DNA of 64,000 bases from a virus (taxonomy: Duplodnaviria > Heunggongvirae > Uroviricota > Caudoviricetes): IMG/VR virus record IMGVR_UViG_3300029641_000003. The stretch is one strand, 5' to 3'. A program made the translations under genes and the position numbers. The notes below the pieces were generated by a model. It was given only the letters and a program-made list of their open reading frames with translations. It was not told the DNA's origin and ran no database searches. Below are positions 3,719-57,196 of this stretch, piece by piece (the stretch's first letter is position 1; every line of letters starts with the position of its first letter).

Positions 3719-4513
3719 TTATGGTTCCTTTTTAGTGTTGCTTTGGAGCGCATCGATTACACCTTGTGGCATGATCAAACTGATTGCGGGACTCATTACT
3801 TCATCGCCCAGTAGAGAACCGGTTAACGTAATAGCTACAGCATTCTCCAGTCCCTGTTTGGCTTTTCCGGTAGAGTCCTTAACTTGCTGTGCAAGTGTTG
3901 AGAGACTACTGCTCGTGTTGTTTATTGCATTTATTTGTTCTGTTGCTGCTTCCACAGCGTCTTTTAGTGCTTTGATCTCTTCTTCTGTTAGTGCTGGTTG
4001 CTGTGTTGTTCCGGTGGAACTTCCGTTGCCTGAAGCCTCCCCGCTTGACGCCTGAACTTTTGCATTTATAGCGGTCATGGCTGAAGTGATTGGCTCCAGT
4101 TCAAATGCTGCCAACGCGTCAATAAGCGATTGCGGATGCAGGGTATCTCCCATAACTGTTACGAGAGCAAATTCTGGCGCAGGAGATAACTCATTACCTT
4201 TGACGTAACATTCCCAGCCAATTTTCATCTGAAGTAATTCAGTTGGCGAAGCATACGGAGACAGCGAGTCGGCTAAATTGGTTGCTTCTGCACTGACAGT
4301 TTTCAGTTGTTCTGAAAAGACAGAAAGCTGATTGACCCATGAAACCACCGACGCCGGGTATGCTTTATCCTTCAGGATAAGAGCCTGGATATTCTCTTCC
4401 AGAGAACTGGCATTGGATGACGCTGTTTTACTTAGCGTGATAGATGCAGGCGTAGTTGTACCTGATGCATTTAGAATTTTGAATGCGTTAACTTCAGCGA
4501 TTGAATCAAGCAT
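3719..4513 (-). CDS. hypothetical Ala/Ser/Thr-rich protein (264 aa)
   Basis: Start overlaps stop of upstream PAAR gene (ATGA), so co-transcribed; no recognised motif. Confidence 0.45.
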   Translation of the reverse strand: MLDSIAEVNAFKILNASGTTTPASITLSKTASSNASSLEENIQALILKDKAYPASVVSWVNQLSVFSEQLKTVSAEATNLADSLSPYASPTELLQMKIGWECYVKGNELSPAPEFALVTVMGDTLHPQSLIDALAAFELEPITSAMTAINAKVQASSGEASGNGSSTGTTQQPALTEEEIKALKDAVEAATEQINAINNTSSSLSTLAQQVKDSTGKAKQGLENAVAITLTGSLLGDEVMSPAISLIMPQGVIDALQSNTKKEP

Positions 4514-4797
4514 TATGACACCTGAAAAATTGCCTCACCATTGGCGATGACTGAGCCACAAGAAAGGGGATCTCCCACACAAACAACTCCTTTCCCGCCT
4601 ATTGCAAACCATGAGCGCGTCGATACGGCTGATCCGGGGTGCGCGCTATTTCCGTCTGTATGGCTGGGGAACGCTCCCCCATCTACAACTACTGGCTTTC
4701 CATTTACGGTAAACCAGGAAACTGTTTCTGCTACAGGTCGCGGAGGGAATCCTCCATGACCAGAACAAACTGTGTCACTGGTCGCTATTGCACTCAT
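4513..4797 (-). CDS. PAAR-domain spike-tip protein
   Basis: 94 aa with PAAR-like repeats: DTVCSGHGG, VNGKPVVVDGG, AIGGKGVVCVGDPLSCGS. Confidence 0.6.
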   Translation of the reverse strand: MSAIATSDTVCSGHGGFPPRPVAETVSWFTVNGKPVVVDGGAFPSHTDGNSAHPGSAVSTRSWFAIGGKGVVCVGDPLSCGSVIANGEAIFQVS

Positions 4798-4859
4798 CTA
4801 ACACCTCCTTTTTCTTAAATCTTCTCCACTTTGTGATTTTCACTCTTCAGATTTCTTAC

Positions 4860-4965
4860 TTCTCATATTTGTCTCTGATTTGTCTCAAAAGGGTATCATG
4901 GGTACATCATGTATCATCTAAGTCTCTTTTGTGTCTCTTTTACGTCTCTAGTTTGATGCTTTTTA
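4860..4965. repeat. parC-like centromere iterons upstream of parM
   Basis: TGTCTC-containing units at about 11-bp spacing (TTGTCTCTGATTTGTCTCA; AAGTCTCTTTTGTGTCTCTTTTACGTCTCT), resembling R1 parC organisation. Confidence 0.45.
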
Positions 4966-5046
4966 CGCTATCTAACTTCTGGTCTTATTTTGTTTTCTCA
5001 TATAAAATTCAATTCTTTCTCAAATGTGTCTCAGAAGTGGAGCAAT

Positions 5047-6006
5047 ATGATGCGCATTTTTATCGACGATGGTTCTACCAATATCAAAATGCTGTGGGAA
5101 CAAGACGGGGAAACTCGAACCCATATCTGTCCGAACAGTTTTAAACGTGGATGGTCCGCCACATTTGGCGCAGGAAAGCCGTTTAACTACATCATTGATG
5201 ACGAAAAATATTCATATGACTTGATTTCGCCGGATGTGCTGCCGACGAATAATGTGGAATGGCAATACAGCCCGCTTAATGTGCTTGCTGTTCATCATGC
5301 CCTGCTTACAAGTGGCATTGAGCCTCAAGAAGTGGAAATAGTTGTCACGTTGCCACTGGCAGAGTTTTATGACGACGACGCACAATACAACATGAAAAAT
5401 ATTGAGCGGAAAAAGGCCAGCCTGATGCGACCAGTCACCCTTAACAAAGGTCAGGTTTTTACTATCAAAAAAGTGACTGTGCGCCCGGAGTCAATACCCG
5501 CAGGGATCGGTCTGTGCGACAGCCTTGTGCCAGCGCATTCTGTGCTTATTGTTGATCTTGGTGGGACTACTCTGGATGTGTCGATGGTCGCCGGGCAAAT
5601 GACCGCCGTTTCTCGCGTATTTGGCGATTCTAATCTCGGCGTTTCGCTGGTAACTAAAGAGGTCAGACAGGCACTTGCAAAAGCGAATACCGAAACCTCT
5701 AATTATAATGTCGATCAATTAATCATTAATCGTGATGATGAGGATTATTTGACCGACAATATTAACGATCCGTCTGCTATTGATGATGTTAAGAAAGCCA
5801 TTTCGTCAAGCATAGAACGACTCCGTACACGCGTACTGGATGTGATCAGTGATTTCAAAGGATACACGCATGTTATGGTCATTGGTGGCGGCGCGCCGCT
5901 TGTTGCTGATGCTATCCGTGAGCAGGTAAACATTCGTGACGATAGGTTTTTTGTTGCTGATGATCCACAACTTGCTCTTGTCTATGGTCTAAAATCTATC
6001 GGTTGA
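5047..6006 (+). CDS. parM: ParM/StbA actin-like plasmid segregation ATPase
   Basis: Start MMRIFIDDGSTNIK with GGAG upstream; recalled R1 ParM similarity along the length (SPNSFKR, WQYSPLNVLAVHHALLTSG, NIERKKA, GYTHVMVIGGGA). Confidence 0.85.
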   Translation: MMRIFIDDGSTNIKMLWEQDGETRTHICPNSFKRGWSATFGAGKPFNYIIDDEKYSYDLISPDVLPTNNVEWQYSPLNVLAVHHALLTSGIEPQEVEIVVTLPLAEFYDDDAQYNMKNIERKKASLMRPVTLNKGQVFTIKKVTVRPESIPAGIGLCDSLVPAHSVLIVDLGGTTLDVSMVAGQMTAVSRVFGDSNLGVSLVTKEVRQALAKANTETSNYNVDQLIINRDDEDYLTDNINDPSAIDDVKKAISSSIERLRTRVLDVISDFKGYTHVMVIGGGAPLVADAIREQVNIRDDRFFVADDPQLALVYGLKSIG

Positions 6007-6016
6007 TGAGGTTGCC

Positions 6017-6382
6017 ATGTCTCAGGAACGTCGAAAAGTATTGTTTTATCTTCGTCCTGGTCTTAACGCCAGTGAGCAATATGCTGATGCAAAACTTGAG
6101 GGCCATCCATTAAGAGATCGCAATGATATGGCGCGCACAGCGATGCTTGCAGGTATCGCTCTTGGCGAGGTTGATAGCAGATTACCTCCCATGTTGGCAT
6201 CGCTTTTATCCGGTGATAATAGCCCTGAAGTGATCAGAAAAATGCTGGTTTCATTTCTTGAAATTTCGCCTGAAGTTCGGGAAAACCCTGAAGGAAACCC
6301 CTCTGCCTCAGCGGATGTTAAAAAACCTGGCGTTTCGAAAAGCCGCTCTGCACAGAATTTGGCAAACTCACTCCCTGATTAA
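6017..6382 (+). CDS. parR: ParR/StbB-like centromere-binding adaptor
   Basis: 121-aa ORF immediately after parM; N-terminal RKVLFYLRPGLNASEQ...RTAMLAGIALG resembles R1 ParR. Confidence 0.6.
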   Translation: MSQERRKVLFYLRPGLNASEQYADAKLEGHPLRDRNDMARTAMLAGIALGEVDSRLPPMLASLLSGDNSPEVIRKMLVSFLEISPEVRENPEGNPSASADVKKPGVSKSRSAQNLANSLPD

Positions 6383-6399
6383 CAAATCTACATCTTCAA

Positions 6400-6424
6400 A
6401 GGCTGCAATTTGCAGCCTTTTTTA
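6400..6424 (+). terminator. intrinsic terminator after parR
   Basis: AGGCTGCA-ATT-TGCAGCCT hairpin followed by TTTTT. Confidence 0.6.
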
Positions 6425-6439
6425 TACTGTTATGGTTCT

Positions 6440-6660
6440 AATTTGGTGCTCTTTTAGTACCAAAATGGTGTTGTTGTGGTGCTGTTTTGTGTCTGGTTCC
6501 ACTTTGAGGCTGATTTCGTGTTAAACAGGATGCAACAGAGGGCAAATTTCGAGTGTTTAGTGTTATACTTTTGCAAAGCATAGTGACTCCACTATAGAGC
6601 CAAAACCGCATCAATAAGGCTTCTGTTTGGAACCATTTTGATACCAAAATAACACCGAGG
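6440..6660. repeat. centromere-like repeat cluster upstream of parA
   Basis: TTTTAGTACCAAAATGGTGTTGTT and GGTTCCA...TTTGAGGCT motifs, repeated again downstream of parG at 7595-7665. Confidence 0.4.
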
Positions 6661-6667
6661 GACGGAT

Positions 6668-7309
6668 ATGATTATATTGGTAGCCAGCCAAAAAGGTGGC
6701 TGTGGCAAATCAACCACCAGCGTAAACATTTGTGCGGAGCTTGCCCGCGCAAATAAGGACGTAGTTCTACTTGATGCAGATAAGCAAGGAACATCTGCCC
6801 GTTGGGCATCGGACCGTAATGCGGCAGAGGTTTCTCCAGTAATTCATTGCGTCCAGAAGTTTGGGAATATTCGTGAAACACTTCTTGATCTGGACAAGCG
6901 TTATGAATTTGTGGTTGTTGATACCGCTGGTCGTGATAGCAAAGAGATGCGCACCGGTATTACTGCGGCGGATGTTTTGCTTGTTCCATTCAGGCCATCT
7001 CAGCCAGATTTAGACACGCTGGCGCATTTTGTTGAAGTCTTTGAAGAGGCTTTGGATCTGATGCCTAATCCTAGCATTAAGGCGTGCGCAGTTTTAACAA
7101 TGGCCCCATCCAATCCGGTTGTGAATGAAGCCAATGAGGCCAAAGAGTACCTGGCTGAATATCCGCAACTGAAGTTGCTGAAAACCATCATTCGCGATCG
7201 CAAGGTTTACCGCGATTGTATGGCTGAAGGGAAGGGCGTTGTTGAGATGGACAACGGGAAAGCTAAAGGTGAAATCCAGATGTTGGTTAAGGAGTTATTA
7301 AGTGATTAA
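6668..7309 (+). CDS. parA: ParA/ParF-type small Walker ATPase (type Ib partition)
   Basis: 213 aa; deviant Walker A SQKGGCGKST at N-terminus, VVVDTAGR Walker B region. Confidence 0.85.
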   Translation: MIILVASQKGGCGKSTTSVNICAELARANKDVVLLDADKQGTSARWASDRNAAEVSPVIHCVQKFGNIRETLLDLDKRYEFVVVDTAGRDSKEMRTGITAADVLLVPFRPSQPDLDTLAHFVEVFEEALDLMPNPSIKACAVLTMAPSNPVVNEANEAKEYLAEYPQLKLLKTIIRDRKVYRDCMAEGKGVVEMDNGKAKGEIQMLVKELLSD

Positions 7310-7589
7310 GCCTCGTAAATCGGTAAAAGCCCCCGAAGTAAAAGACCTCGATCTTGAACGCCGAATTGAGGCTTTTGCCAGCAAAGCTGATTTGGTGCCG
7401 GGTGAGCAACCAGAAGACAACAAAGTGCTCGATAAGGACGCCCCACGTGATTTTAAATCCATTCGTGTTGGCTTCAATGAATACGAGTACCAGGTACTTG
7501 ATGCGTTAAGCAAAAAGCATAATCGCAGCAAATTGAATATGATCCGCCATGCTATCCTCATGCTTGCAGAGTCTGAGGATACAAAATGA
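7302..7589 (+). CDS. ParG-like ribbon-helix-helix centromere-binding protein
   Basis: 95-aa ORF with GTG start overlapping parA stop; C-terminal RHH-like segment IRVGFNEYEYQVLDALSKK...MIRHAILMLAE. Confidence 0.5.
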   Translation: MIKPRKSVKAPEVKDLDLERRIEAFASKADLVPGEQPEDNKVLDKDAPRDFKSIRVGFNEYEYQVLDALSKKHNRSKLNMIRHAILMLAESEDTK

Positions 7590-7594
7590 CGCTG

Positions 7595-7665
7595 GAATGA
7601 CACCGTTTTGGTTCCATGTGTTATTTTGAGGCTACTTTGATTCCTTTTTAGTACCAGAATGGTGT
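7595..7665. repeat. second copy of centromere-like repeats flanking parA-parG
   Basis: GGTTCCATGTGTTATTTTGAGGCT and TTTTAGTACCAGAATGGTGTTGTT match motifs at 6440-6660. Confidence 0.4.
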
Positions 7666-7700
7666 TGTTAGTGTACCGTAACGGTGCTTGTTTGATGTTA

Positions 7701-7724
7701 TAAAAGCCCCATATGGGGCTTTTC
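7701..7724. terminator. bidirectional intrinsic terminator between convergent par and methyltransferase operons
   Basis: AAAA-AGCCCC-ATAT-GGGGCT-TTTT palindrome flanked by A-run and T-run. Confidence 0.55.
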
Positions 7725-8759
7725 TTAATTAAGTGTGGCTATAATGTCGTTAGCTATCATTCGCGTTGATGCTTTACAGGATACAGAGCGACGGGATGGC
7801 ATAGGATACACCTTGAAGCCATTGCCAACGTAAAGTTCGCGAATGTTAGGCGCACCACTGTTTGTTATCACAATTTTCGCTCCGCGTCTGTGGGCATCCA
7901 CCAGCAGTGACACCAGCCGTTGTTGATCTTCAAACCTAAAGCTATGCCCTGAGTAATTTGTAAATCCGGTAGTGTCGGGCAATGGTTCATAGGGGGGATC
8001 GCAGAAAATCACATCATCATTCCCGGCAGCCTCAATTACACCAGCAAAATCGCCGGACACAAATTCCGAATACTTTGAAATATCGTCAGCCAGGAACGCC
8101 TCCATTTCCGCGAGAGGGAAGTGGGGTGATTTCTGCTTTCCATATCCGACGTTGAACTCTCCTTTACGGTTATAGCGAGTGACGCCATTAAAACAATGAC
8201 GATTGAGATACAGGAACGCCGCTGCATGGTGAAGGGAATCATAAGCACCATTGTTGAATGCATTGCGAACATTCAAAAATGCATCAGCAGAGTTGTAATC
8301 CTGAAAAAAACGATATGCCAGTGTGATAAGAGAATGCCCTTCACGCTGCAATGTCTGATAGAAGTTAATCAGGTCATTATTGATATCGTTCAGCAGGTTG
8401 CTTTTAAATCCGGCATTAGTGAAAACAGCGCCACCTCCAACGAAAGGTTCTATCAACCGTTTTCCGTGGGGCAGGTGTTCGAAGATAATGGGCAGTGCAG
8501 AAAATTTGCCGCCGACCCACTTAAAGACTGGGCGATCAAATTCGTCCTCCGAGCGAATACGTCGCATATGGCTGATAGTGGCTTCCGCCGCAGGACGATG
8601 ATTGTCGCTATAAGAAATAAATTTAGCACCAATATCAGCCACGGATTCCCTCCTTATTTGCTTCAAATACAGCTCTTGCAAAACCGTAAGGTGTCGCGCT
8701 ACGAAAATTCGCTCTTTCAGGCCCTGGCGGTGCCTTGTGTATTCGGTTATCTGGATCAC
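7725..8759 (-). CDS. Dam-like N6-adenine DNA methyltransferase (start uncertain, possibly ATG at 8567)
   Basis: KWVGGKF, FVGGGAV (SAM motif), NRHCFNGVTRYN, DPPY catalytic motif; recalled E. coli Dam similarity begins at about residue 75 of the ORF. Confidence 0.8.
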   Translation of the reverse strand: MIQITEYTRHRQGLKERIFVARHLTVLQELYLKQIRRESVADIGAKFISYSDNHRPAAEATISHMRRIRSEDEFDRPVFKWVGGKFSALPIIFEHLPHGKRLIEPFVGGGAVFTNAGFKSNLLNDINNDLINFYQTLQREGHSLITLAYRFFQDYNSADAFLNVRNAFNNGAYDSLHHAAAFLYLNRHCFNGVTRYNRKGEFNVGYGKQKSPHFPLAEMEAFLADDISKYSEFVSGDFAGVIEAAGNDDVIFCDPPYEPLPDTTGFTNYSGHSFRFEDQQRLVSLLVDAHRRGAKIVITNSGAPNIRELYVGNGFKVYPMPSRRSVSCKASTRMIANDIIATLN

Positions 8760-9441
8760 CTAACGACTTGTCGATTCGCGGAGTTGGCATGATGAATCCT
8801 TGCCCGCTCCACAGGCATGTTTTTTTGGTGTAATTGTCTTCCTTGCAATATGCAGTGAAGTGATAAGGATGGAATATGTGATCAGGTTTACGCCAGAATG
8901 TCGATATTTGGCTGACCGGGTTTTCAATCATGTACGGGCAACCAATCATCTTTGCAATGTCGTAACACTGCCAGACAACCTGCATTGCTTTGAACTGGAA
9001 AACCGGATCTTTTTTTGCTTTATCTGCGAACCAGCGTGCGCCAGATACAGCCAGGTCAGTACATGGAGGGAAACCGGCTAAAAATACAACTCTGTGCAAA
9101 TTTTTCCGAAGGAAATTGTAGACCTCATCACTGTCAATAATTGCGCTGATACGTGTGAGTACAGCACCTGACTCCATCAATTGGCTGCCGGACTCCTGGT
9201 GTTGCGGATCGACAATGACTGCATCAATGCCGTGTTCCAGCCAGGGGGAAACCATATTCCCTGTATAATCACAAAGACTCACCGCCAGCGGTCGGTTATT
9301 AATGCTCTGCTTCACCGCCAATGGCCTCCACCAGCGAGCTAAACATCGCGGATAATTCGCTTGTGAACAGAATGAAGTCAGCATCAAATCGCTGGGCAAC
9401 ATCTTCACGGTCGATGTCATCGTTCTGGTCATAGAGATCAT
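8635..9441 (-). CDS. divergent C5-cytosine methyltransferase-like protein
   Basis: Motif IV-like GFPPCTDLAVSG and motif VI-like ENP; motif I degenerate (LCDYTGNM); overlaps the Dam-like ORF by 125 nt and rdgC by 143 nt in other frames. Confidence 0.4.
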   Translation of the reverse strand: MISMTRTMTSTVKMLPSDLMLTSFCSQANYPRCLARWWRPLAVKQSINNRPLAVSLCDYTGNMVSPWLEHGIDAVIVDPQHQESGSQLMESGAVLTRISAIIDSDEVYNFLRKNLHRVVFLAGFPPCTDLAVSGARWFADKAKKDPVFQFKAMQVVWQCYDIAKMIGCPYMIENPVSQISTFWRKPDHIFHPYHFTAYCKEDNYTKKTCLWSGQGFIMPTPRIDKSLGDPDNRIHKAPPGPERANFRSATPYGFARAVFEANKEGIRG

Positions 9442-20448: not shown

Positions 20449-21249
20449 ATTGGCAGCCTCCTTTGACTAAGTTAAGGAGCTACCGCGTGAGGTTCCAATC
20501 TCAATGGCGGTAGCACTGACTGGGTTGGAACTACCGGCGTCAAAGGGAACCGGCCTGCCTTTCGGCAGCCCAGCCAGCACTACCATTGATCTCTGAGCTA
20601 AACGCTACGTATGGCTGTGCGATGGCATGACACAAAAAAAGACGCTTTCGGCGTCTGTGTCGCCTTTGACATTATCCGGGGTTCCAATCCCGGCACCCGT
20701 TTTTCTAAGGTGCCGTAGAAATATACCCCACGATAATGCCAGGGCGCAACAGTCAGTATTTTATGCTTTGGCAGATTTCTTTCGGGCTTGCTTGCAGGCG
20801 TAGGCCATTGCTTTAGCTTTCACTTCATCCAGCTTTCCGGTGATCACTTCTTTTCCGAGAGTGACAAACCAGTCATAGCAACCGCCAGTGATGTTCTGGA
20901 TTTGAAAGTTGAGATAGCGAACGGTCATTTTGACACCCCCAGCGCGAGTAAAGAATGCAGATTATCGCGTGAGTGGCGGACAACGAGTGATGGGAAAAGA
21001 CAGTAGCTGTTCATAGTGTAGTGACTCCTTGCTTTCGGAGCCGCCATCGACTGTTCCACGGTCTGGTGGCGGCGCAATAAAGGTTGGAACACCGTGAGTC
21101 AACGGGGGCTTTTCAGCCACCTATATTGCACCGCCATTGGTATGGCGGCGGCAATCATACGAAAAACCAAACGGTTTGTCTCAAAAAGTTGACCGGTGTA
21201 CCAATCGGTTGTGAATGTACAACGGCGAATTTCACAATTCAACTTAAAA
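20449..21249 (-). other. structured untranslated leader between operator and icd-like gene; candidate c4-like antisense RNA region
   Basis: About 800 bp with no credible ORF, several hairpins (GCTACCGC...GCGGTAGC; CTGCC-TTTC-GGCAG) and an internal intrinsic terminator (GACGCCGAAAGCGTC plus T7) at 20630-20665. Confidence 0.3.
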
Positions 21250-42497: not shown

Positions 42498-42573
42498 TGG
42501 TGGCCCCTACCGGACTTGAACCGGTGACCGTGCGATTATGAGTCGCCCGCTCTAACCACTGAGCTAAAGGGCC
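42498..42573 (-). tRNA. tRNA-Ile (anticodon CAU, ileX-like)
   Basis: 76 nt GGCCCTTTAGCTCAGTGGTTAGAGCGGGCGACTCATAATCGC...GGTTCAAGTCCGGTAGGGGCCACCA; cloverleaf with CAU anticodon and encoded CCA; near-identical to E. coli ileX as recalled. Confidence 0.8.
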
Positions 42574-42710
42574 AGATTACTGTTAATTACGCTTACGCTT
42601 TTTGCCAGAACCGCGTAAGGCTTTTGCCGCTTGCTCTACCCCGTATGCAACCACCAGCAGAAACAATAATGTCCACTCCGGGTTTTTATCGGCAAACGCC
42701 CAAAAATTCA

Positions 42711-42944
42711 TCACTTACAGCCACCTTGCATTTCCTCGGATAATTCATTGACTTTAGTGCTCAATAAGTAATCAAAGTAAAGATAAAACACAAAAGTAAC
42801 GATAGTGCTTAAAGTGTCTGAAATTGCGTATTTCAGCTCAGGAAGCATGACAAAGCAGACAAATAGCGGAAGAAATAACTGCACTATGCACAGACTCTCC
42901 TTCCACAACCATCTATATCTGAAGTCTGACAACAAAAACTCCAT
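42711..42944 (-). CDS. small membrane protein (77 aa)
   Basis: Hydrophobic segments; stop overlaps start (TGATG) of a further 41-aa hydrophobic ORF at 42583-42711. Confidence 0.35.
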   Translation of the reverse strand: MEFLLSDFRYRWLWKESLCIVQLFLPLFVCFVMLPELKYAISDTLSTIVTFVFYLYFDYLLSTKVNELSEEMQGGCK

Positions 42945-43194
42945 TGCTTGAAACTTTATTAGATTGCGGTGCCTGGTGCCTCCAGGTGACGTTAACCAGT
43001 TAACAATTAACGCCGGGATGTTTGACTTAACTATTAAGGAAAATTGTTTTAACTGTTCCGCGTGCGCTTAGCCGCATTCACCGCAATGGTAAGAGCATTT
43101 GGCTGGCTGGGCGGCGATGACGCCTGTACGCATTTGGTGATCCGGTTCTGCTTCCGGCATTCGCTTAATTAGCCAAATACTCTTAACGTTGCGC

Positions 43195-43281
43195 TGGCGG
43201 AGAGTAATGGAATCGAACCATCATCGCTTGCGCAATGGGACGGTTTTCAAGACCGCTTGAGCACCATGCTCCCTACTCTCC
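43195..43281 (-). tRNA. tRNA-like gene, type II (long variable arm), possible tRNA-Ser(UGA)
   Basis: GGAGAGT/ACTCTCC 7-bp acceptor stem, discriminator G plus CCA, T-arm GATGG-TTCGATT-CCATT, anticodon loop CTTGAAA; D-arm atypical. Confidence 0.4.
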
Positions 43282-43529
43282 AGTGATTGTGGTGGTCGGT
43301 ACTGATCTCCGACTGCGCCTCTTTTTTTCATAGCCCATAAGGCCGGTCAGTGCGCTTGATGACTGAGGCATCGATATTTACTACGCCGCCTCGTTGCCAT
43401 AGGGCGGACTTGCGCGCCAGCAACGCGCATTCACCACAACGGAAAGAGCATTTATGGCTCGCATCGCGGGAAGCGGGAAAAAACCCACGGTAGAGAGTCG
43501 AACTCTACAAATGCTCTTACCTGTTGTGT

Positions 43530-43605
43530 TGGTGCCGGTTAACGGACTCGAACCGCTGACATCCTGCTTACAAGGCAGGCGCTCTACCAACTGAGCTAAA
43601 CCGGC
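43530..43605 (-). tRNA. tRNA-Thr (anticodon UGU)
   Basis: GCCGGTTTAGCTCAGTTGGTAGAGC...CTTGTAA...GGTTCGAGTCCGTTAACCGGCACCA canonical cloverleaf. Confidence 0.85.
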
Positions 43606-43607
43606 AT

Positions 43608-43682
43608 TGGCGATGGTGGATGGATTCGAACCACCGACCAGTTGGTTAACAGCCAACTGCTCTACCACTGAGCTACACCATC
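43608..43682 (-). tRNA. tRNA-Asn (anticodon GUU)
   Basis: GATGGTGTAGCTCAGTGGTAGAGC...CTGTTAA...GGTTCGAATCCATCCACCATCGCCA; 2 nt from tRNA-Thr. Confidence 0.85.
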
Positions 43683-56867: not shown

Positions 56868-57196
56868 AGTTACGGCCTCGTAAGTTGATAAACAACCTGC
56901 GACCCGCTGTCAAACAGGTGGCAGGACGTGACAGGGTTGACAGACTGGCACTTACGAAACCAGCAGGCCGAAGCCTCCCCATCACGCCCCACCATAATTC
57001 GGGCGTAACGTGGTTTTACGGACACAAAAATACCGCAATATCGGAAATGTGCGGTTGTCCGCGTAAGTATTCAGGCTGTCAAACCTGGTCGCAGAATTTG
57101 CTACGACGGCATGAATATAAGCCTGAACATTAGAAAGATCAACAGAATTTTTATCAAATGCTGTTTTTTAGTGACAATGTAAATCATACATTCTTG
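56868..57196 (-). other. structured untranslated leader, copy 2 (candidate c4-like RNA region)
   Basis: No ORF; hairpin CCGCA...TGCGG followed by U-run ending TTTTTGTGTC, the same tail as in copy 1. Confidence 0.3.

What the first reader, a model, noticed from the sequence alone, without database searches (positions are those of the whole stretch)
4860..7724. Tandem partition locus (parMRC plus parA/parG with flanking repeats) replacing P1-type parAB
An actin-type ParM/ParR system with 11-bp TGTCTC iterons is immediately followed by a small ParA/ParF ATPase and a ribbon-helix-helix ParG-like protein. The second operon is bracketed on both sides by related repeat clusters (TTTTAGTACCAAAATGGTGTTGTT; GGTTCCA...TTTGAGGCT). 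This double-par layout resembles the par1/par2 locus of plasmid pB171, although there the two operons are divergent and here they are tandem. I recall P1 itself using parA-parB-parS, so the maintenance module appears to have been exchanged.
Basis: partly seen in the sequence, partly recalled or inferred. Interest (0 to 1): 0.5.

Follow-up and report, generated by a model that had tools for sequence, protein, structure and literature searches.

The report
Double partition locus of D6-like phage-plasmid
This stretch holds two complete, adjacent plasmid-segregation systems (an actin-type ParM/ParR set and a small ParA plus a ribbon-helix-helix partner, each with its own repeat arrays); the same locus is already annotated in phage D6 and about 120 related plasmids, so it is real but largely ordinary.

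Summary
Window 4860-7724 carries, all on the + strand:
- parC iterons
- parM, 54% identical to R1 ParM
- parR, which matches the pB171 ParR structure
- a terminator
- a repeat array and a candidate promoter
- a 213-aa ParA with a deviant Walker A motif
- an overlapping 95-aa protein whose model is a ribbon-helix-helix fold
- a second related repeat array, then a bidirectional terminator

ParM, ParR and ParA are homologous to the pB171-type double par locus (42%, 33% and 43% identity). Here the operons are tandem rather than divergent. The 95-aa protein shows no sequence homology to pB171 ParB.

No P1 ParA, ParB, RepA or parS homologue is found in the window or in the closest complete plasmid. 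That plasmid uses a RepB replicon.

The element is not P1 but a D6-like phage-plasmid. The same four genes sit at the same place in phage D6 (annotated 'partition protein' twice, 'ParA-like', 'hypothetical') and in 122 PLSDB plasmids. Combinations of type II with type Ib systems, and type Ib operons with arrays on both sides, are published.

Three things are not annotated anywhere:
- the centromere arrays
- the RHH protein family, labelled 'hypothetical' in 210 plasmids
- the two deeply diverged ParR/parC alleles paired with a nearly invariant ParM, with the two modules reassorting among relatives

Interest is low to moderate.

The parts
4860..5036 (+). parC: proposed ParR-binding iteron region that also contains the parM promoter. 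KTCTC units at 4860, 4871, 4882 / 4922, 4933, 4944 / 4995 / 5017, 5028. A candidate -10 box, TAAAAT, lies at 5003-5008.
   Evidence: There are 9 units against 0.38 expected (P 3e-10), spaced 11 nt within clusters, and this is the densest GTCTC window in the 64 kb. Tandem Repeats Finder gives period 11. The -10 box is inferred only from conservation in the alignment of variants; the promoter scan did not report it.
5050..6006 (+). parM: actin-like segregation ATPase, type II. An alternative ATG lies at 5047.
   Evidence: Pfam StbA_N 2e-69 and ParM C-terminal domain 9e-56. R1 ParM structures match at E 1e-110 with 54% identity. The DDGST, DLGGTTLD and GGGA motifs are intact. dN/dS against D6 is 0.014.
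6017..6382 (+). parR: ribbon-helix-helix adaptor expected to bind parC.
   Evidence: PF10784 3e-14. PDB 2JD3 (pB171 ParR) 4e-7. 33% identity to pB171-type ParR. PHROG 8671 'partition protein' 9e-58.
6398..6420 (+). Intrinsic terminator after parR, separating the two operons.
   Evidence: 10-bp stem followed by a T run. Free energy -14.5 kcal/mol, z-score -5.1. Conserved in all variants.
6433..6512 (+). Upstream repeat array of the parA operon (proposed ParG-binding centromere, analogous to parC1/parH). About six 11-nt units, TGGTnCTnTTT, followed by GGTTCCA-N3-TTTGAGGCT.
   Evidence: The 11-nt register is visible. Tandem Repeats Finder gives period 11 at 6466-6486. This is the densest TGGTNC window in the 64 kb. 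6 GGTNY copies against 0.9 expected. Part of the 38-nt repeat, 84% identical to 7632-7669.
6561..6569 (+). Candidate extended -10 promoter element of parA, TGTTATACT.
   Evidence: It is conserved across all aligned variants in an otherwise variable spacer and is the only match to TGNTATACT in the window. It is inferred; the consensus promoter scan did not report it.
6603..6656 (-). Inverted copies of the same repeat units, between the candidate promoter and the parA start (proposed operator for autoregulation).
   Evidence: Inverted repeat I1: 6445-6469 pairs with 6632-6656, 25 nt, 84% complementary. GGTNY copies on the minus strand at 6603, 6630, 6641 and 6652, the last three 11 nt apart. Conserved in the closer, D6-type variants.
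6668..7309 (+). parA: small Walker-type partition ATPase (type Ib) with no N-terminal DNA-binding domain.
   Evidence: 213 aa with KGGCGKST. Pfam CbiA, MipZ and VirC1. NCBIfam ParA_partition 2e-46, below its cut-off. 43% identical to pB171-type ParA. ParF of TP228 matches at 3e-18. dN/dS 0.056.
7302..7589 (+). ParG-like centromere-binding protein, 95 aa. It has a basic N-terminal tip (MIKPRK), a helix at residues 16-29, a linker, and a C-terminal ribbon-helix-helix domain (about residues 50-92). It is translationally coupled to parA.
   Evidence: The AlphaFold2 model has pLDDT 87.8, and 92-98 over the RHH domain. All top Foldseek hits are RHH proteins: CopA, ParG 1P94, CopG and Arc. Family members hit the Pfam RHH families NikA-like (21 of 67) and RHH_1 (18 of 67). 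A PHROG 'Arc-like repressor' family matches at 5e-4. dN/dS 0.09-0.12.
7600..7692 (+). Downstream repeat array (proposed second ParG-binding site, analogous to parC2).
   Evidence: It contains the 38-nt copy of the upstream array (7632-7669) and the GGTTCCA...TTTGAGGCT module. 6 GGTNY copies against 1.4 expected. Variants whose downstream sequence has diverged still carry the motif, for example two GGTGCACC palindromes in D6.
7702..7723 (.). Bidirectional terminator hairpin shared by parG and the convergent dam methyltransferase gene.
   Evidence: Free energy -14.6 kcal/mol on both strands, z-scores -3.4 and -3.9.

Best explanation
This is the plasmid-maintenance (segregation) region of a D6-like phage-plasmid. 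It holds two complete, independently transcribed partition systems in tandem.

System 1 is type II (parMRC).
- ParR dimers are expected to coat the 11-bp iterons upstream of parM.
- That binding would both repress the parM promoter and cap ATP-ParM filaments.
- The filaments grow between two ParR/parC complexes and push sister prophage plasmids apart.

System 2 is type Ib.
- The ribbon-helix-helix protein is expected to bind the GGTNY-type units in three places: upstream of the operon, in the 5' leader, and downstream of the operon.
- Binding at the leader and promoter would autoregulate the operon.
- The protein's basic N-terminal tail would stimulate ATP hydrolysis by nucleoid-bound ParA dimers, so that plasmids are spaced along the nucleoid.

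What is shown here: gene identities, protein folds, repeat anatomy, terminators, purifying selection on the genes, conservation across relatives, and absence of the P1 parABS system.

What is inferred from the families: which protein binds which repeat, the promoter positions, and that both systems actually stabilise the plasmid.
For: Protein identities.

Homology to the pB171-type double par locus: ParM 42%, ParR 33%, ParA 43%, with the stand-in locus validated.

RHH fold of the 95-aa protein.

Catalytic motifs are intact. The ParM aspartate equivalent to R1 D170 is present; it is required for function according to PMC6519299.

Repeats: the iteron arrays are strongly enriched and spaced at 11 nt. 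Long repeat copies link the upstream, leader and downstream sites of the parA operon.

Precedent: arrays on both sides are a published feature of the type Ib systems of pESBL, pB171 and pSM19035 (PMC7602700).

Transcription units: a terminator lies between the operons and another after parG.

Selection and conservation:
- ParM dN/dS is 0.014 with synonymous sites saturated; ParA 0.056; ParG 0.09-0.12. For ParR no ratio could be computed because synonymous sites are saturated (pN 0.24 against pS 0.84).
- The four-gene order is kept in D6, in 19 IMG/VR contigs and in 122 plasmids.
- The iteron sequence changes together with the ParR allele: GTCTC here, TTCTCAA in D6-type loci.

No other partition genes are annotated in the closest complete plasmid, and no P1 ParA, ParB or parS homologue is found.
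Against: - Nothing here shows binding or plasmid stabilisation.
- The consensus promoter scan did not find promoters at the expected places.
- The GGTNY motif was defined after looking at the sequence, and its enrichment is only P about 0.003 per region.
- The downstream array is poorly conserved in sequence between variants: 45-56% identity to D6.
- In other plasmids with two systems, one is often dispensable under laboratory conditions, for example pINV StbAB and SCP1 parABS2.
- The window covers only about 64 of about 92 kb. The rest was checked only in a 97-99% identical relative.
Confidence: 0.8

Rival explanations
1. Only one of the two systems carries out segregation. The other is redundant, conditional (for example dependent on temperature or host), or serves mainly as a regulator or incompatibility determinant. 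One published description of a D6-like plasmid labels a 'cop' (copy-number control) gene in this gene set; I take this to be the RHH gene.
For: [quoted passage not shown] In SCP1 only one of two functional systems is needed (PMC13245405). PMC6799933 lists 'cop, parA, stbB and parM' for the D6-like pYU39_89.
Against: All four genes are under purifying selection, and the order is conserved in more than 120 records. The RHH gene is translationally coupled to parA, as in type Ib operons. Its family is found next to ParA genes in unrelated plasmids of Acinetobacter, Aeromonas, Moraxella and Serratia. The repeat arrays are much larger than a simple operator would need.
Confidence: 0.12
2. The downstream repeat cluster (7600-7692) is not a second centromere. 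It would be a leftover partial duplication at a recombination boundary of the module, so only the upstream array functions.
For: The segment downstream of parG is the least conserved part of the locus (45-56% identity to D6). It coincides with a variable junction: D6 has glnS there and the window does not. The motif enrichment is modest and was defined after looking at the sequence.
Against: A 38-nt copy is 84% identical to the upstream array, and a second shared module is present. Variants with unrelated downstream sequence still carry several GGTNY/RNACC units there, which suggests selection for the motif rather than shared ancestry: D6 has two GGTGCACC palindromes, and L027 has six units. 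Distant ParA/ParG pairs in L004 and L008 also have GTACC/GGTGC units just after the stop codon. Dual arrays are known for pB171, pSM19035 and pESBL.
Confidence: 0.2
3. The two systems share regulatory sites, as in pB171: ParR and the RHH protein would each bind in the other's control region.
For: A single ParR-type unit, CTGTTTTGTGTCT, lies at 6482-6494 inside the ParG-type array. A single ParG-type unit lies at 4948-4964 inside parC (families D7 and D9). pB171 has cross-talk through a shared region.
Against: These are single copies. By my own estimate, a 12-of-13 match between the two regions is expected about 0.3 times by chance. The unit at 6482-6494 does not change to the D6-type iteron in D6-type loci. 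The operons are tandem and separated by a strong terminator, not divergent from one region.
Confidence: 0.05

Closest known systems
Phage D6 orf58-orf61 (NC_050154, 57140-59656) and the D6-like plasmid prophages
   Same: The four genes are orthologous and lie in the same order and position, between upfC and the dam/hrdC block. Overall DNA identity is 85% over 77% of the region. ParM is 94% identical, ParA 96% and the RHH protein 95%.
   Different: ParR is only 59% identical, and the parC iterons differ (GTCTC here, TTCTCAA there). Synonymous sites in parM are saturated between the two. The sequence downstream of parG differs, and D6 has glnS there. In D6 the RHH gene is annotated as hypothetical, and no centromere is annotated.
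Double par locus (par1 parMRC plus par2 parABC) of E. coli virulence plasmid pB171, seen here through its near-identical IncI-gamma/K1 copy CP082591.1
   Same: An adjacent type II and type Ib pair. ParM is 42% identical, ParR 33% and ParA 43%. The small partner of ParA overlaps the parA end. [quoted passage not shown]
   Different: The operons there are divergent from one shared control region; here they are tandem with a terminator between them. The small DNA-binding protein shows no detectable sequence relationship: BLASTP E 2.1 and hhalign probability below 1%. The repeat sequences are unrelated.
parMRC of plasmid R1
   Same: This is the closest solved ParM (54% identity, E 1e-110). Both have 11-bp iterons upstream of parM and around its promoter, and both have the order parC-parM-parR. 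The R1 parC layout is from my own knowledge.
   Different: Nine recognisable units in four groups here, against two blocks of five in R1 (from memory). The ParR sequence was not compared directly, because R1 ParR has no entry in the libraries used.
parFGH of plasmid TP228
   Same: A small ParA-type ATPase: ParF is the best solved match to ParA (3e-18). Its partner also has a flexible N-terminal tail followed by a C-terminal ribbon-helix-helix domain; ParG 1P94 is among the top fold matches.
   Different: ParG shows no significant sequence similarity. The TP228 centromere is described as a single array of 4-bp boxes (about 100 bp; PMC3130281, abstract listed; its position upstream of the operon is from my own knowledge). 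Here the units are about 11 nt long and lie on both sides.
Type Ib par locus of IncI plasmid pESBL
   Same: A small ParA (45% identical in the IncI-gamma/K1 plasmid L002, which I infer to be of the pESBL type; not checked against pESBL), a DNA-binding partner of about 100 aa, and two arrays of direct repeats, one upstream and one downstream of the operon.
   Different: The partner protein is unrelated in sequence. The repeats there are octamers. There is no adjacent parMRC.
P1 parA-parB-parS (type Ia)
   Same: The same role, in a related phage-plasmid whose neighbouring genes are shared with this element (23, upfB, upfC, hrdC, dmt).
   Different: No homologue is present here. P1 ParA is 398 aa and is itself the operator-binding repressor; its N-terminal DNA-binding domain is from my own knowledge. 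P1 ParB is a ParB/SopB-family protein of 333 aa, a helix-turn-helix type. P1 parS is a single IHF-bent site. The P1 module lies next to repA, between gene 23 and upfA.

Membership tests
Type II partition system (ParMRC) | Actin-fold ATPase with ParM N- and C-terminal domains and intact nucleotide-binding motifs | tested here: met
   Pfam 2e-69 and 9e-56. 54% identity to R1 ParM across the full length. DDGST, DLGGTTLD and GGGA motifs are conserved.
Type II partition system (ParMRC) | Small ParR adaptor encoded directly downstream of parM | tested here: met
   PF10784 3e-14. Matches the pB171 ParR structure 2JD3 at 4e-7.
Type II partition system (ParMRC) | parC centromere: multiple direct iterons upstream of parM, overlapping its promoter | tested here: met
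   9 KTCTC units with 11-nt spacing in 4860-5036, P 3e-10. The overlap with the promoter is only inferred.
Type II partition system (ParMRC) | ParR binds parC, ParM filaments form, and the plasmid is stabilised | not testable with these tools
   Needs footprinting, imaging and plasmid-loss assays.
Type Ib partition system (small ParA plus ribbon-helix-helix centromere-binding protein) | ParA of about 200-220 aa with a deviant Walker A motif and no N-terminal DNA-binding domain | tested here: met
   213 aa with KGGCGKST at residues 9-16. Full-length alignment to 214-aa pB171-type ParA and to ParF.
Type Ib partition system (small ParA plus ribbon-helix-helix centromere-binding protein) | Small partner protein with a ribbon-helix-helix DNA-binding domain and an unstructured or basic N-terminal tail, encoded right after parA | tested here: met
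   AlphaFold2 model. All top Foldseek hits are RHH proteins. Family members hit Pfam RHH families. The genes overlap by 8 nt. The strand of the fold forms only in the dimer, so it is not seen in the monomer model.
Type Ib partition system (small ParA plus ribbon-helix-helix centromere-binding protein) | Arrays of short repeats next to the operon that serve as centromere and operator | tested here: inconclusive
   The arrays exist at 6433-6512, 6603-6656 and 7600-7692 and are related to each other. Binding and function were not tested.
pB171-type double par locus | Adjacent type II and type Ib systems with homologous ParM, ParR and ParA | tested here: met
   42%, 33% and 43% identity.
pB171-type double par locus | Divergent operons sharing one central control and centromere region (parC1) | tested here: not met
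   Both operons are on the + strand, with terminator 6398-6420 between them. The stand-in locus L003 is divergent.
pB171-type double par locus | ParB homologous to pB171 ParB | tested here: not met
   BLASTP E 2.1. hhalign probability 0.9%.
TP228 ParG family | Sequence homology to ParG | tested here: not met
   phmmer and a family profile against all PDB sequences did not return 1P94. Only the fold matches.
P1-type (type Ia) parABS | Large ParA, ParB/SopB-family protein and a parS site | tested here: not met
   There is no hit better than E about 1 in the window or in the closest complete plasmid.

The most novel reading that the evidence does not exclude
Among D6-like phage-plasmids the two partition modules behave as exchangeable specificity cassettes.

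- ParR and its iterons have split into at least two old alleles. ParR is 59% identical between them and synonymous sites are saturated, yet ParM has stayed 94% identical.
- The parA-parG module moves between lineages independently of parMRC.

This pattern would be expected if partition incompatibility between co-resident related prophage plasmids drives diversification of the centromere and its binding protein. Carrying two systems would then let an element escape incompatibility through one of them.

In addition, the RHH protein would define an unnamed family of type Ib centromere-binding proteins that recognise GGTNY units spaced one helical turn apart on both sides of the operon.
Probability: 0.35. 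Interest if true: 0.4.

Novelty: new member of a known kind. Interest (0 to 1): 0.25.

Why it matters
D6-like phage-plasmids are common in E. coli, Salmonella and Shigella: 122 PLSDB records carry this locus. Their stable inheritance as low-copy plasmids depends on regions like this one.

Mapping the centromere arrays and recognising the 'hypothetical' 95-aa gene as the ParA partner gives three practical things:
- a correct annotation for about 210 plasmid records
- defined fragments for stability and incompatibility experiments
- two natural ParR/parC alleles, paired with an almost unchanged ParM, for studying how centromere specificity evolves

It does not change what is known about how partition works.

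Tried and rejected
- **Papers not available.** I tried to read the D6 genome paper (Gilcrease and Casjens 2018) and Ebersbach and Gerdes 2001. Neither is held. Statements about D6 therefore rest on its GenBank annotation. Details of pB171 rest on later papers that cite it and on my own knowledge.
- **pB171 record not available.** NC_002142 is not in the plasmid collection. I used CP082591.1 instead, after checking that its ParR is about 97% identical to PDB 2JD3.
- **Homology of the 95-aa protein to other ParA partners: rejected.** There is none to pB171-type ParB or to the 100-aa partner in the IncI-gamma/K1 plasmid L002 (which I take to be pESBL-type), by BLASTP or hhalign. Direct PDB sequence searches gave only marginal CopG hits, E about 0.09.
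- **Searches for related loci.** The search for related loci with the family alignment failed because no block was conserved enough. The single-protein scan of genome contigs gave only one locus.
- **Promoter scan.** It found no convincing sigma-70 sites upstream of parM or parA. The promoter positions I give rest on conservation only.
- **Cross-talk between the two systems through shared sites: rejected.** See the third rival explanation.
- **A small RNA in the 285-nt spacer or elsewhere in the locus.** There are no Rfam matches in 4700-7800.
- **A sharp recombination mosaic as the explanation for the divergent parR: rejected.** Synonymous sites are saturated across parM as well. The whole parMRC module is therefore anciently diverged and ParM is simply under very strong constraint.

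Full report
**What is there**

Between the PAAR gene (upfC-like, 4513-4797, minus strand) and a Dam methyltransferase gene (7725-8759, minus strand) lie four genes on the + strand:
- parM at 5050-6006. It matches Pfam StbA_N at 2e-69 and the ParM C-terminal domain at 9e-56.
- parR at 6017-6382. It matches PF10784 at 3e-14.
- A 213-aa ParA at 6668-7309. It matches CbiA, MipZ and VirC1 and has the Walker A sequence KGGCGKST.
- A 95-aa ORF at 7302-7589. It starts at a GTG that overlaps the parA stop, follows an AAGGAG ribosome-binding site, and has no Pfam hit.

PHROGs calls the first three 'partition protein' or 'ParA-like partition protein'. It places the fourth in a family of unknown function, with a weak 'Arc-like repressor' match.

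**The repeats**

Upstream of parM:
- The unit KTCTC occurs nine times on the + strand in 4850-5046, against 0.38 expected from the window-wide rate (P 3e-10). The positions are 4860, 4871, 4882 / 4922, 4933, 4944 / 4995 / 5017, 5028.
- Spacing within clusters is therefore 11 nt. Tandem Repeats Finder reports period 11.
- This is the densest GTCTC window in the whole 64 kb.

Around the second operon there are three related clusters:
1. 6433-6512 reads in an 11-nt register as TGGTTCTAATT / TGGTGCTCTTT / TAGTACCAAAA / TGGTGTTGTTG / TGGTGCTGTTT / TGTGTCTGGTT, followed by CCACTTTGAGGCT.
2. 6603-6656 carries the same units on the other strand, just before the parA start. It forms a 25-nt inverted repeat, 84% complementary, with 6445-6469.
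3. 7600-7692, after the 95-aa gene, contains a 38-nt copy (7632-7669) that is 84% identical to 6438-6475. It also repeats the GGTTCCA...TTTGAGGCT module.

A loose core, GGTNY on either strand, is enriched in the spacer (10 against 3.5 expected) and downstream (6 against 1.4 expected). It is not enriched in the coding parts. I chose that motif after looking at the sequence, so the long repeat pairs carry more weight.

**Transcription signals**

A strong hairpin followed by a T run lies after parR (6398-6420, -14.5 kcal/mol, z -5.1). Another lies after the 95-aa gene (7702-7723, stable on both strands). The two gene pairs are therefore separate operons.

The consensus promoter scan found nothing convincing. 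An extended -10 element, TGTTATACT (6561-6569), is conserved in every variant within an otherwise variable spacer, and it is the only such site in the window. A TAAAAT at 5003-5008 is likewise conserved upstream of parM. Both promoter positions are inferences.

**The 95-aa protein**

- A full HMMER scan of 1.84 billion representative proteins found 101 relatives of about 90 aa.
- Their alignment shows a basic N-terminal tip (consensus MVKRR), a conserved IE-FA--AD helix, and a C-terminal block, K-I-VPFNEYEY--LE-----GRSKLN-IR-A.
- Individual members hit the Pfam ribbon-helix-helix families NikA-like (21 of 67), RHH_1/CopG (18 of 67), DUF6290, RHH_7 and TraY.
- The family profile aligns to CopG over the whole RHH unit, at a marginal E-value of 0.09.
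- The AlphaFold2 model has mean pLDDT 87.8, and 92-98 over residues 41-90. It has helices at 16-29, 60-73 and 77-92. The short strand before the first RHH helix is not formed in the monomer model, which is expected because it pairs only in the dimer.
- All top Foldseek matches in the PDB are RHH proteins: CopA_SO, TP228 ParG (1P94, rank 4), CopG, Arc, NikA and ParD. The rmsd is 1.2-1.5 Å over about 42 residues.

The architecture (tail, helix, RHH) is that of type Ib centromere-binding proteins. There is no sequence relationship to the pB171-type ParB or to the 100-aa partner in the IncI-gamma/K1 plasmid L002, which I take to be pESBL-type.

**Relatives**

Megablast finds the region in phage D6 at 85% identity over 77% of the query. 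There the genes are orf58 to orf61, annotated 'partition protein', 'partition protein', 'ParA-like partition protein' and 'hypothetical protein'. It also finds the region in 122 PLSDB plasmids of Escherichia, Salmonella and Shigella. Almost all are non-mobilizable and about 90 kb. Seven of them match along the full length.

A paper on D6-like prophages of Salmonella lists 'cop, parA, stbB and parM' as the partition system of pYU39_89 (PMC6799933). The element is therefore a D6-like phage-plasmid, and the locus is already in the public record.

**Comparison with P1**

In P1 the order is 23 - parS - parB - parA - incA - repA - oriR - upfA - mlp - ppfA - upfB - upfC, followed by uhr - hrdC - dmt.

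Here and in D6, small ORFs lie between gene 23 and upfB. The par locus lies after upfC, followed by dam and rdgC/hrdC in inverted orientation.

tblastn with P1 ParA, ParB and RepA, and blastn with parS, gave nothing better than E about 1. This held both in the window and in the closest complete plasmid, NZ_LR890273.1, which is 97-99% identical across the window. That plasmid has a RepB-family initiator about 10 kb from the par locus and no other annotated partition gene. So the P1 maintenance block is absent, but it was not replaced in place.

**Comparison with known systems**

CP082591.1 (IncI-gamma/K1) carries a divergent parM-parR / parA-copG locus. Its ParR is about 97% identical to PDB 2JD3, the pB171 ParR structure, so it stands in for pB171.
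- Against it, ParM is 42% identical, ParR 33% and ParA 43%.
- ParM is closer to R1 ParM, at 54% identity and E 1e-110.
- The best solved match to ParA is ParF of TP228, at 3e-18.

[quoted passage not shown] It also states that the two pB171 systems are adjacent and share one regulatory region (PMC6519299), and that 971 PLSDB plasmids combine a type I RHH-ParB system with a type II system (PMC13245405).

The layout here is therefore a tandem variant of a known combination, with a different family of RHH partner.

**Evidence that both systems are maintained by selection**

Window compared with D6:

| Gene | Amino-acid identity | dN/dS | Note |
|---|---|---|---|
| ParM | 94% | 0.014 | pS 0.73, synonymous sites saturated |
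| ParA | 96% | 0.056 | |
| RHH protein | 96% | 0.12 (0.09 against L027) | |
| ParR | 62% | not computable | dN 0.29, pS 0.84 |

- The iterons upstream of parM differ with the ParR allele: GTCTC in window-type loci, TTCTCAA in D6-type loci. The last 35 nt before the start codon are conserved.
- The window-type ParR allele is found in only 7 PLSDB plasmids. The next closest is the D6 type, at 54-59%.
- The two modules reassort. L013 and L014 combine window-type parMRC with D6-type parA. L011 and L012 do the reverse.
- Variants with 74-76% identical RHH proteins (L025 to L027) have different spacer and downstream sequences but still carry GGTGC, GGTGT and GTACC units there.
- Two distant ParA/RHH pairs also have GTACC or GGTGC units immediately after the stop codon. 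One is on a Kacie_13 plasmid next to repB; the other is in a Pseudomonadota MAG. Their RHH proteins are 52% and 43% identical to the window's.
- The RHH family occurs in 210 PLSDB plasmids, about 90 of them outside the D6 group. In the rows listed it is labelled 'hypothetical protein' (or lacks a matching annotation) and in most it lies beside a ParA-type ATPase gene.

**Mechanism proposed**

System 1 would work like R1 parMRC. ParR on the iterons represses the promoter and anchors growing ParM filaments, which push plasmid copies apart.

System 2 would work like pB171 par2 or TP228 parFGH. RHH dimers bind the arrays on both sides of the operon and in its leader, which represses the operon. 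Their basic N-terminal tails activate nucleoid-bound ParA, which spaces the plasmids.

The assignment of each protein to its repeats, the promoter positions and the actual stabilising activity are inferences from family knowledge. Nothing here measures binding or plasmid loss.

**Verdict**

It is a new member of a known kind. Its interest is limited to three things: the unannotated centromere arrays, the unnamed RHH family, and the allelic divergence and reassortment of the two modules.

Noticed in passing
window 7590-7760, compared with L001 6575-8504: Phage D6 and many relatives carry a glutaminyl-tRNA synthetase gene (glnS) between the RHH gene and dam. In those loci the Dam match lies about 2 kb further away (L011, L015, L018 to L023, L026). 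The window and L009, L010, L013, L014, L024, L025 and L027 lack it, and dam follows directly after a shared terminator.
   Followed up: partly
window 5050-6382, compared with L001 4058-5362: Between the window and D6, synonymous sites in parM are saturated (pS 0.73) while the protein is 94% identical. ParR has dropped to 59% identity. parA-parG is much more recently shared (dS 0.2-0.4). The two modules occur in both combinations among IMG/VR contigs.
   Followed up: partly
window 7302-7589, and 210 PLSDB plasmids: The family of the 95-aa RHH protein has no Pfam or NCBIfam model. In the PLSDB rows listed it is annotated 'hypothetical protein' or has no matching annotation, including in Acinetobacter, Moraxella, Aeromonas, Serratia and Arsenophonus plasmids; in most rows it lies next to a ParA-type ATPase gene.
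   Followed up: partly
window 20503-20713 and 56914-57120: There are two P1-type immunity RNA loci. C4 antisense RNA lies at 20503-20590 and at 56914-56999. The second has its a1/b1 target at 57068-57120. An isrK sRNA match lies at 20635-20713.
   Followed up: no
window 42498-43682: A cluster of four tRNA genes on the minus strand: Met-CAT, Ser-TGA, Thr-TGT and Asn-GTT. Rfam reports three of them.
   Followed up: no
window 7725-9441: The single bifunctional P1 dmt gene is represented here by two overlapping ORFs on the minus strand. One is a Dam-type N6-adenine methyltransferase (7725-8759, PF02086 2e-53). The other is a 268-aa ORF with no Pfam hit (8635-9441). RdgC/hrdC follows them. D6 has the same split.
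   Followed up: no
window 6482-6494 and 4948-4964: One parC-type unit (CTGTTTTGTGTCT) sits inside the array upstream of parA, and one unit of the parA-side type sits inside parC. They are single copies, roughly what chance would give, and they do not change with the ParR allele in D6-type loci.
   Followed up: yes
L006/L007 (NZ_LR890273.1): The closest complete plasmid carries several addiction modules besides the par locus (HicA, Phd/Doc, HigB with an HTH partner, and a type I toxin), plus a RepB initiator and a lytic replication protein.
   Followed up: no
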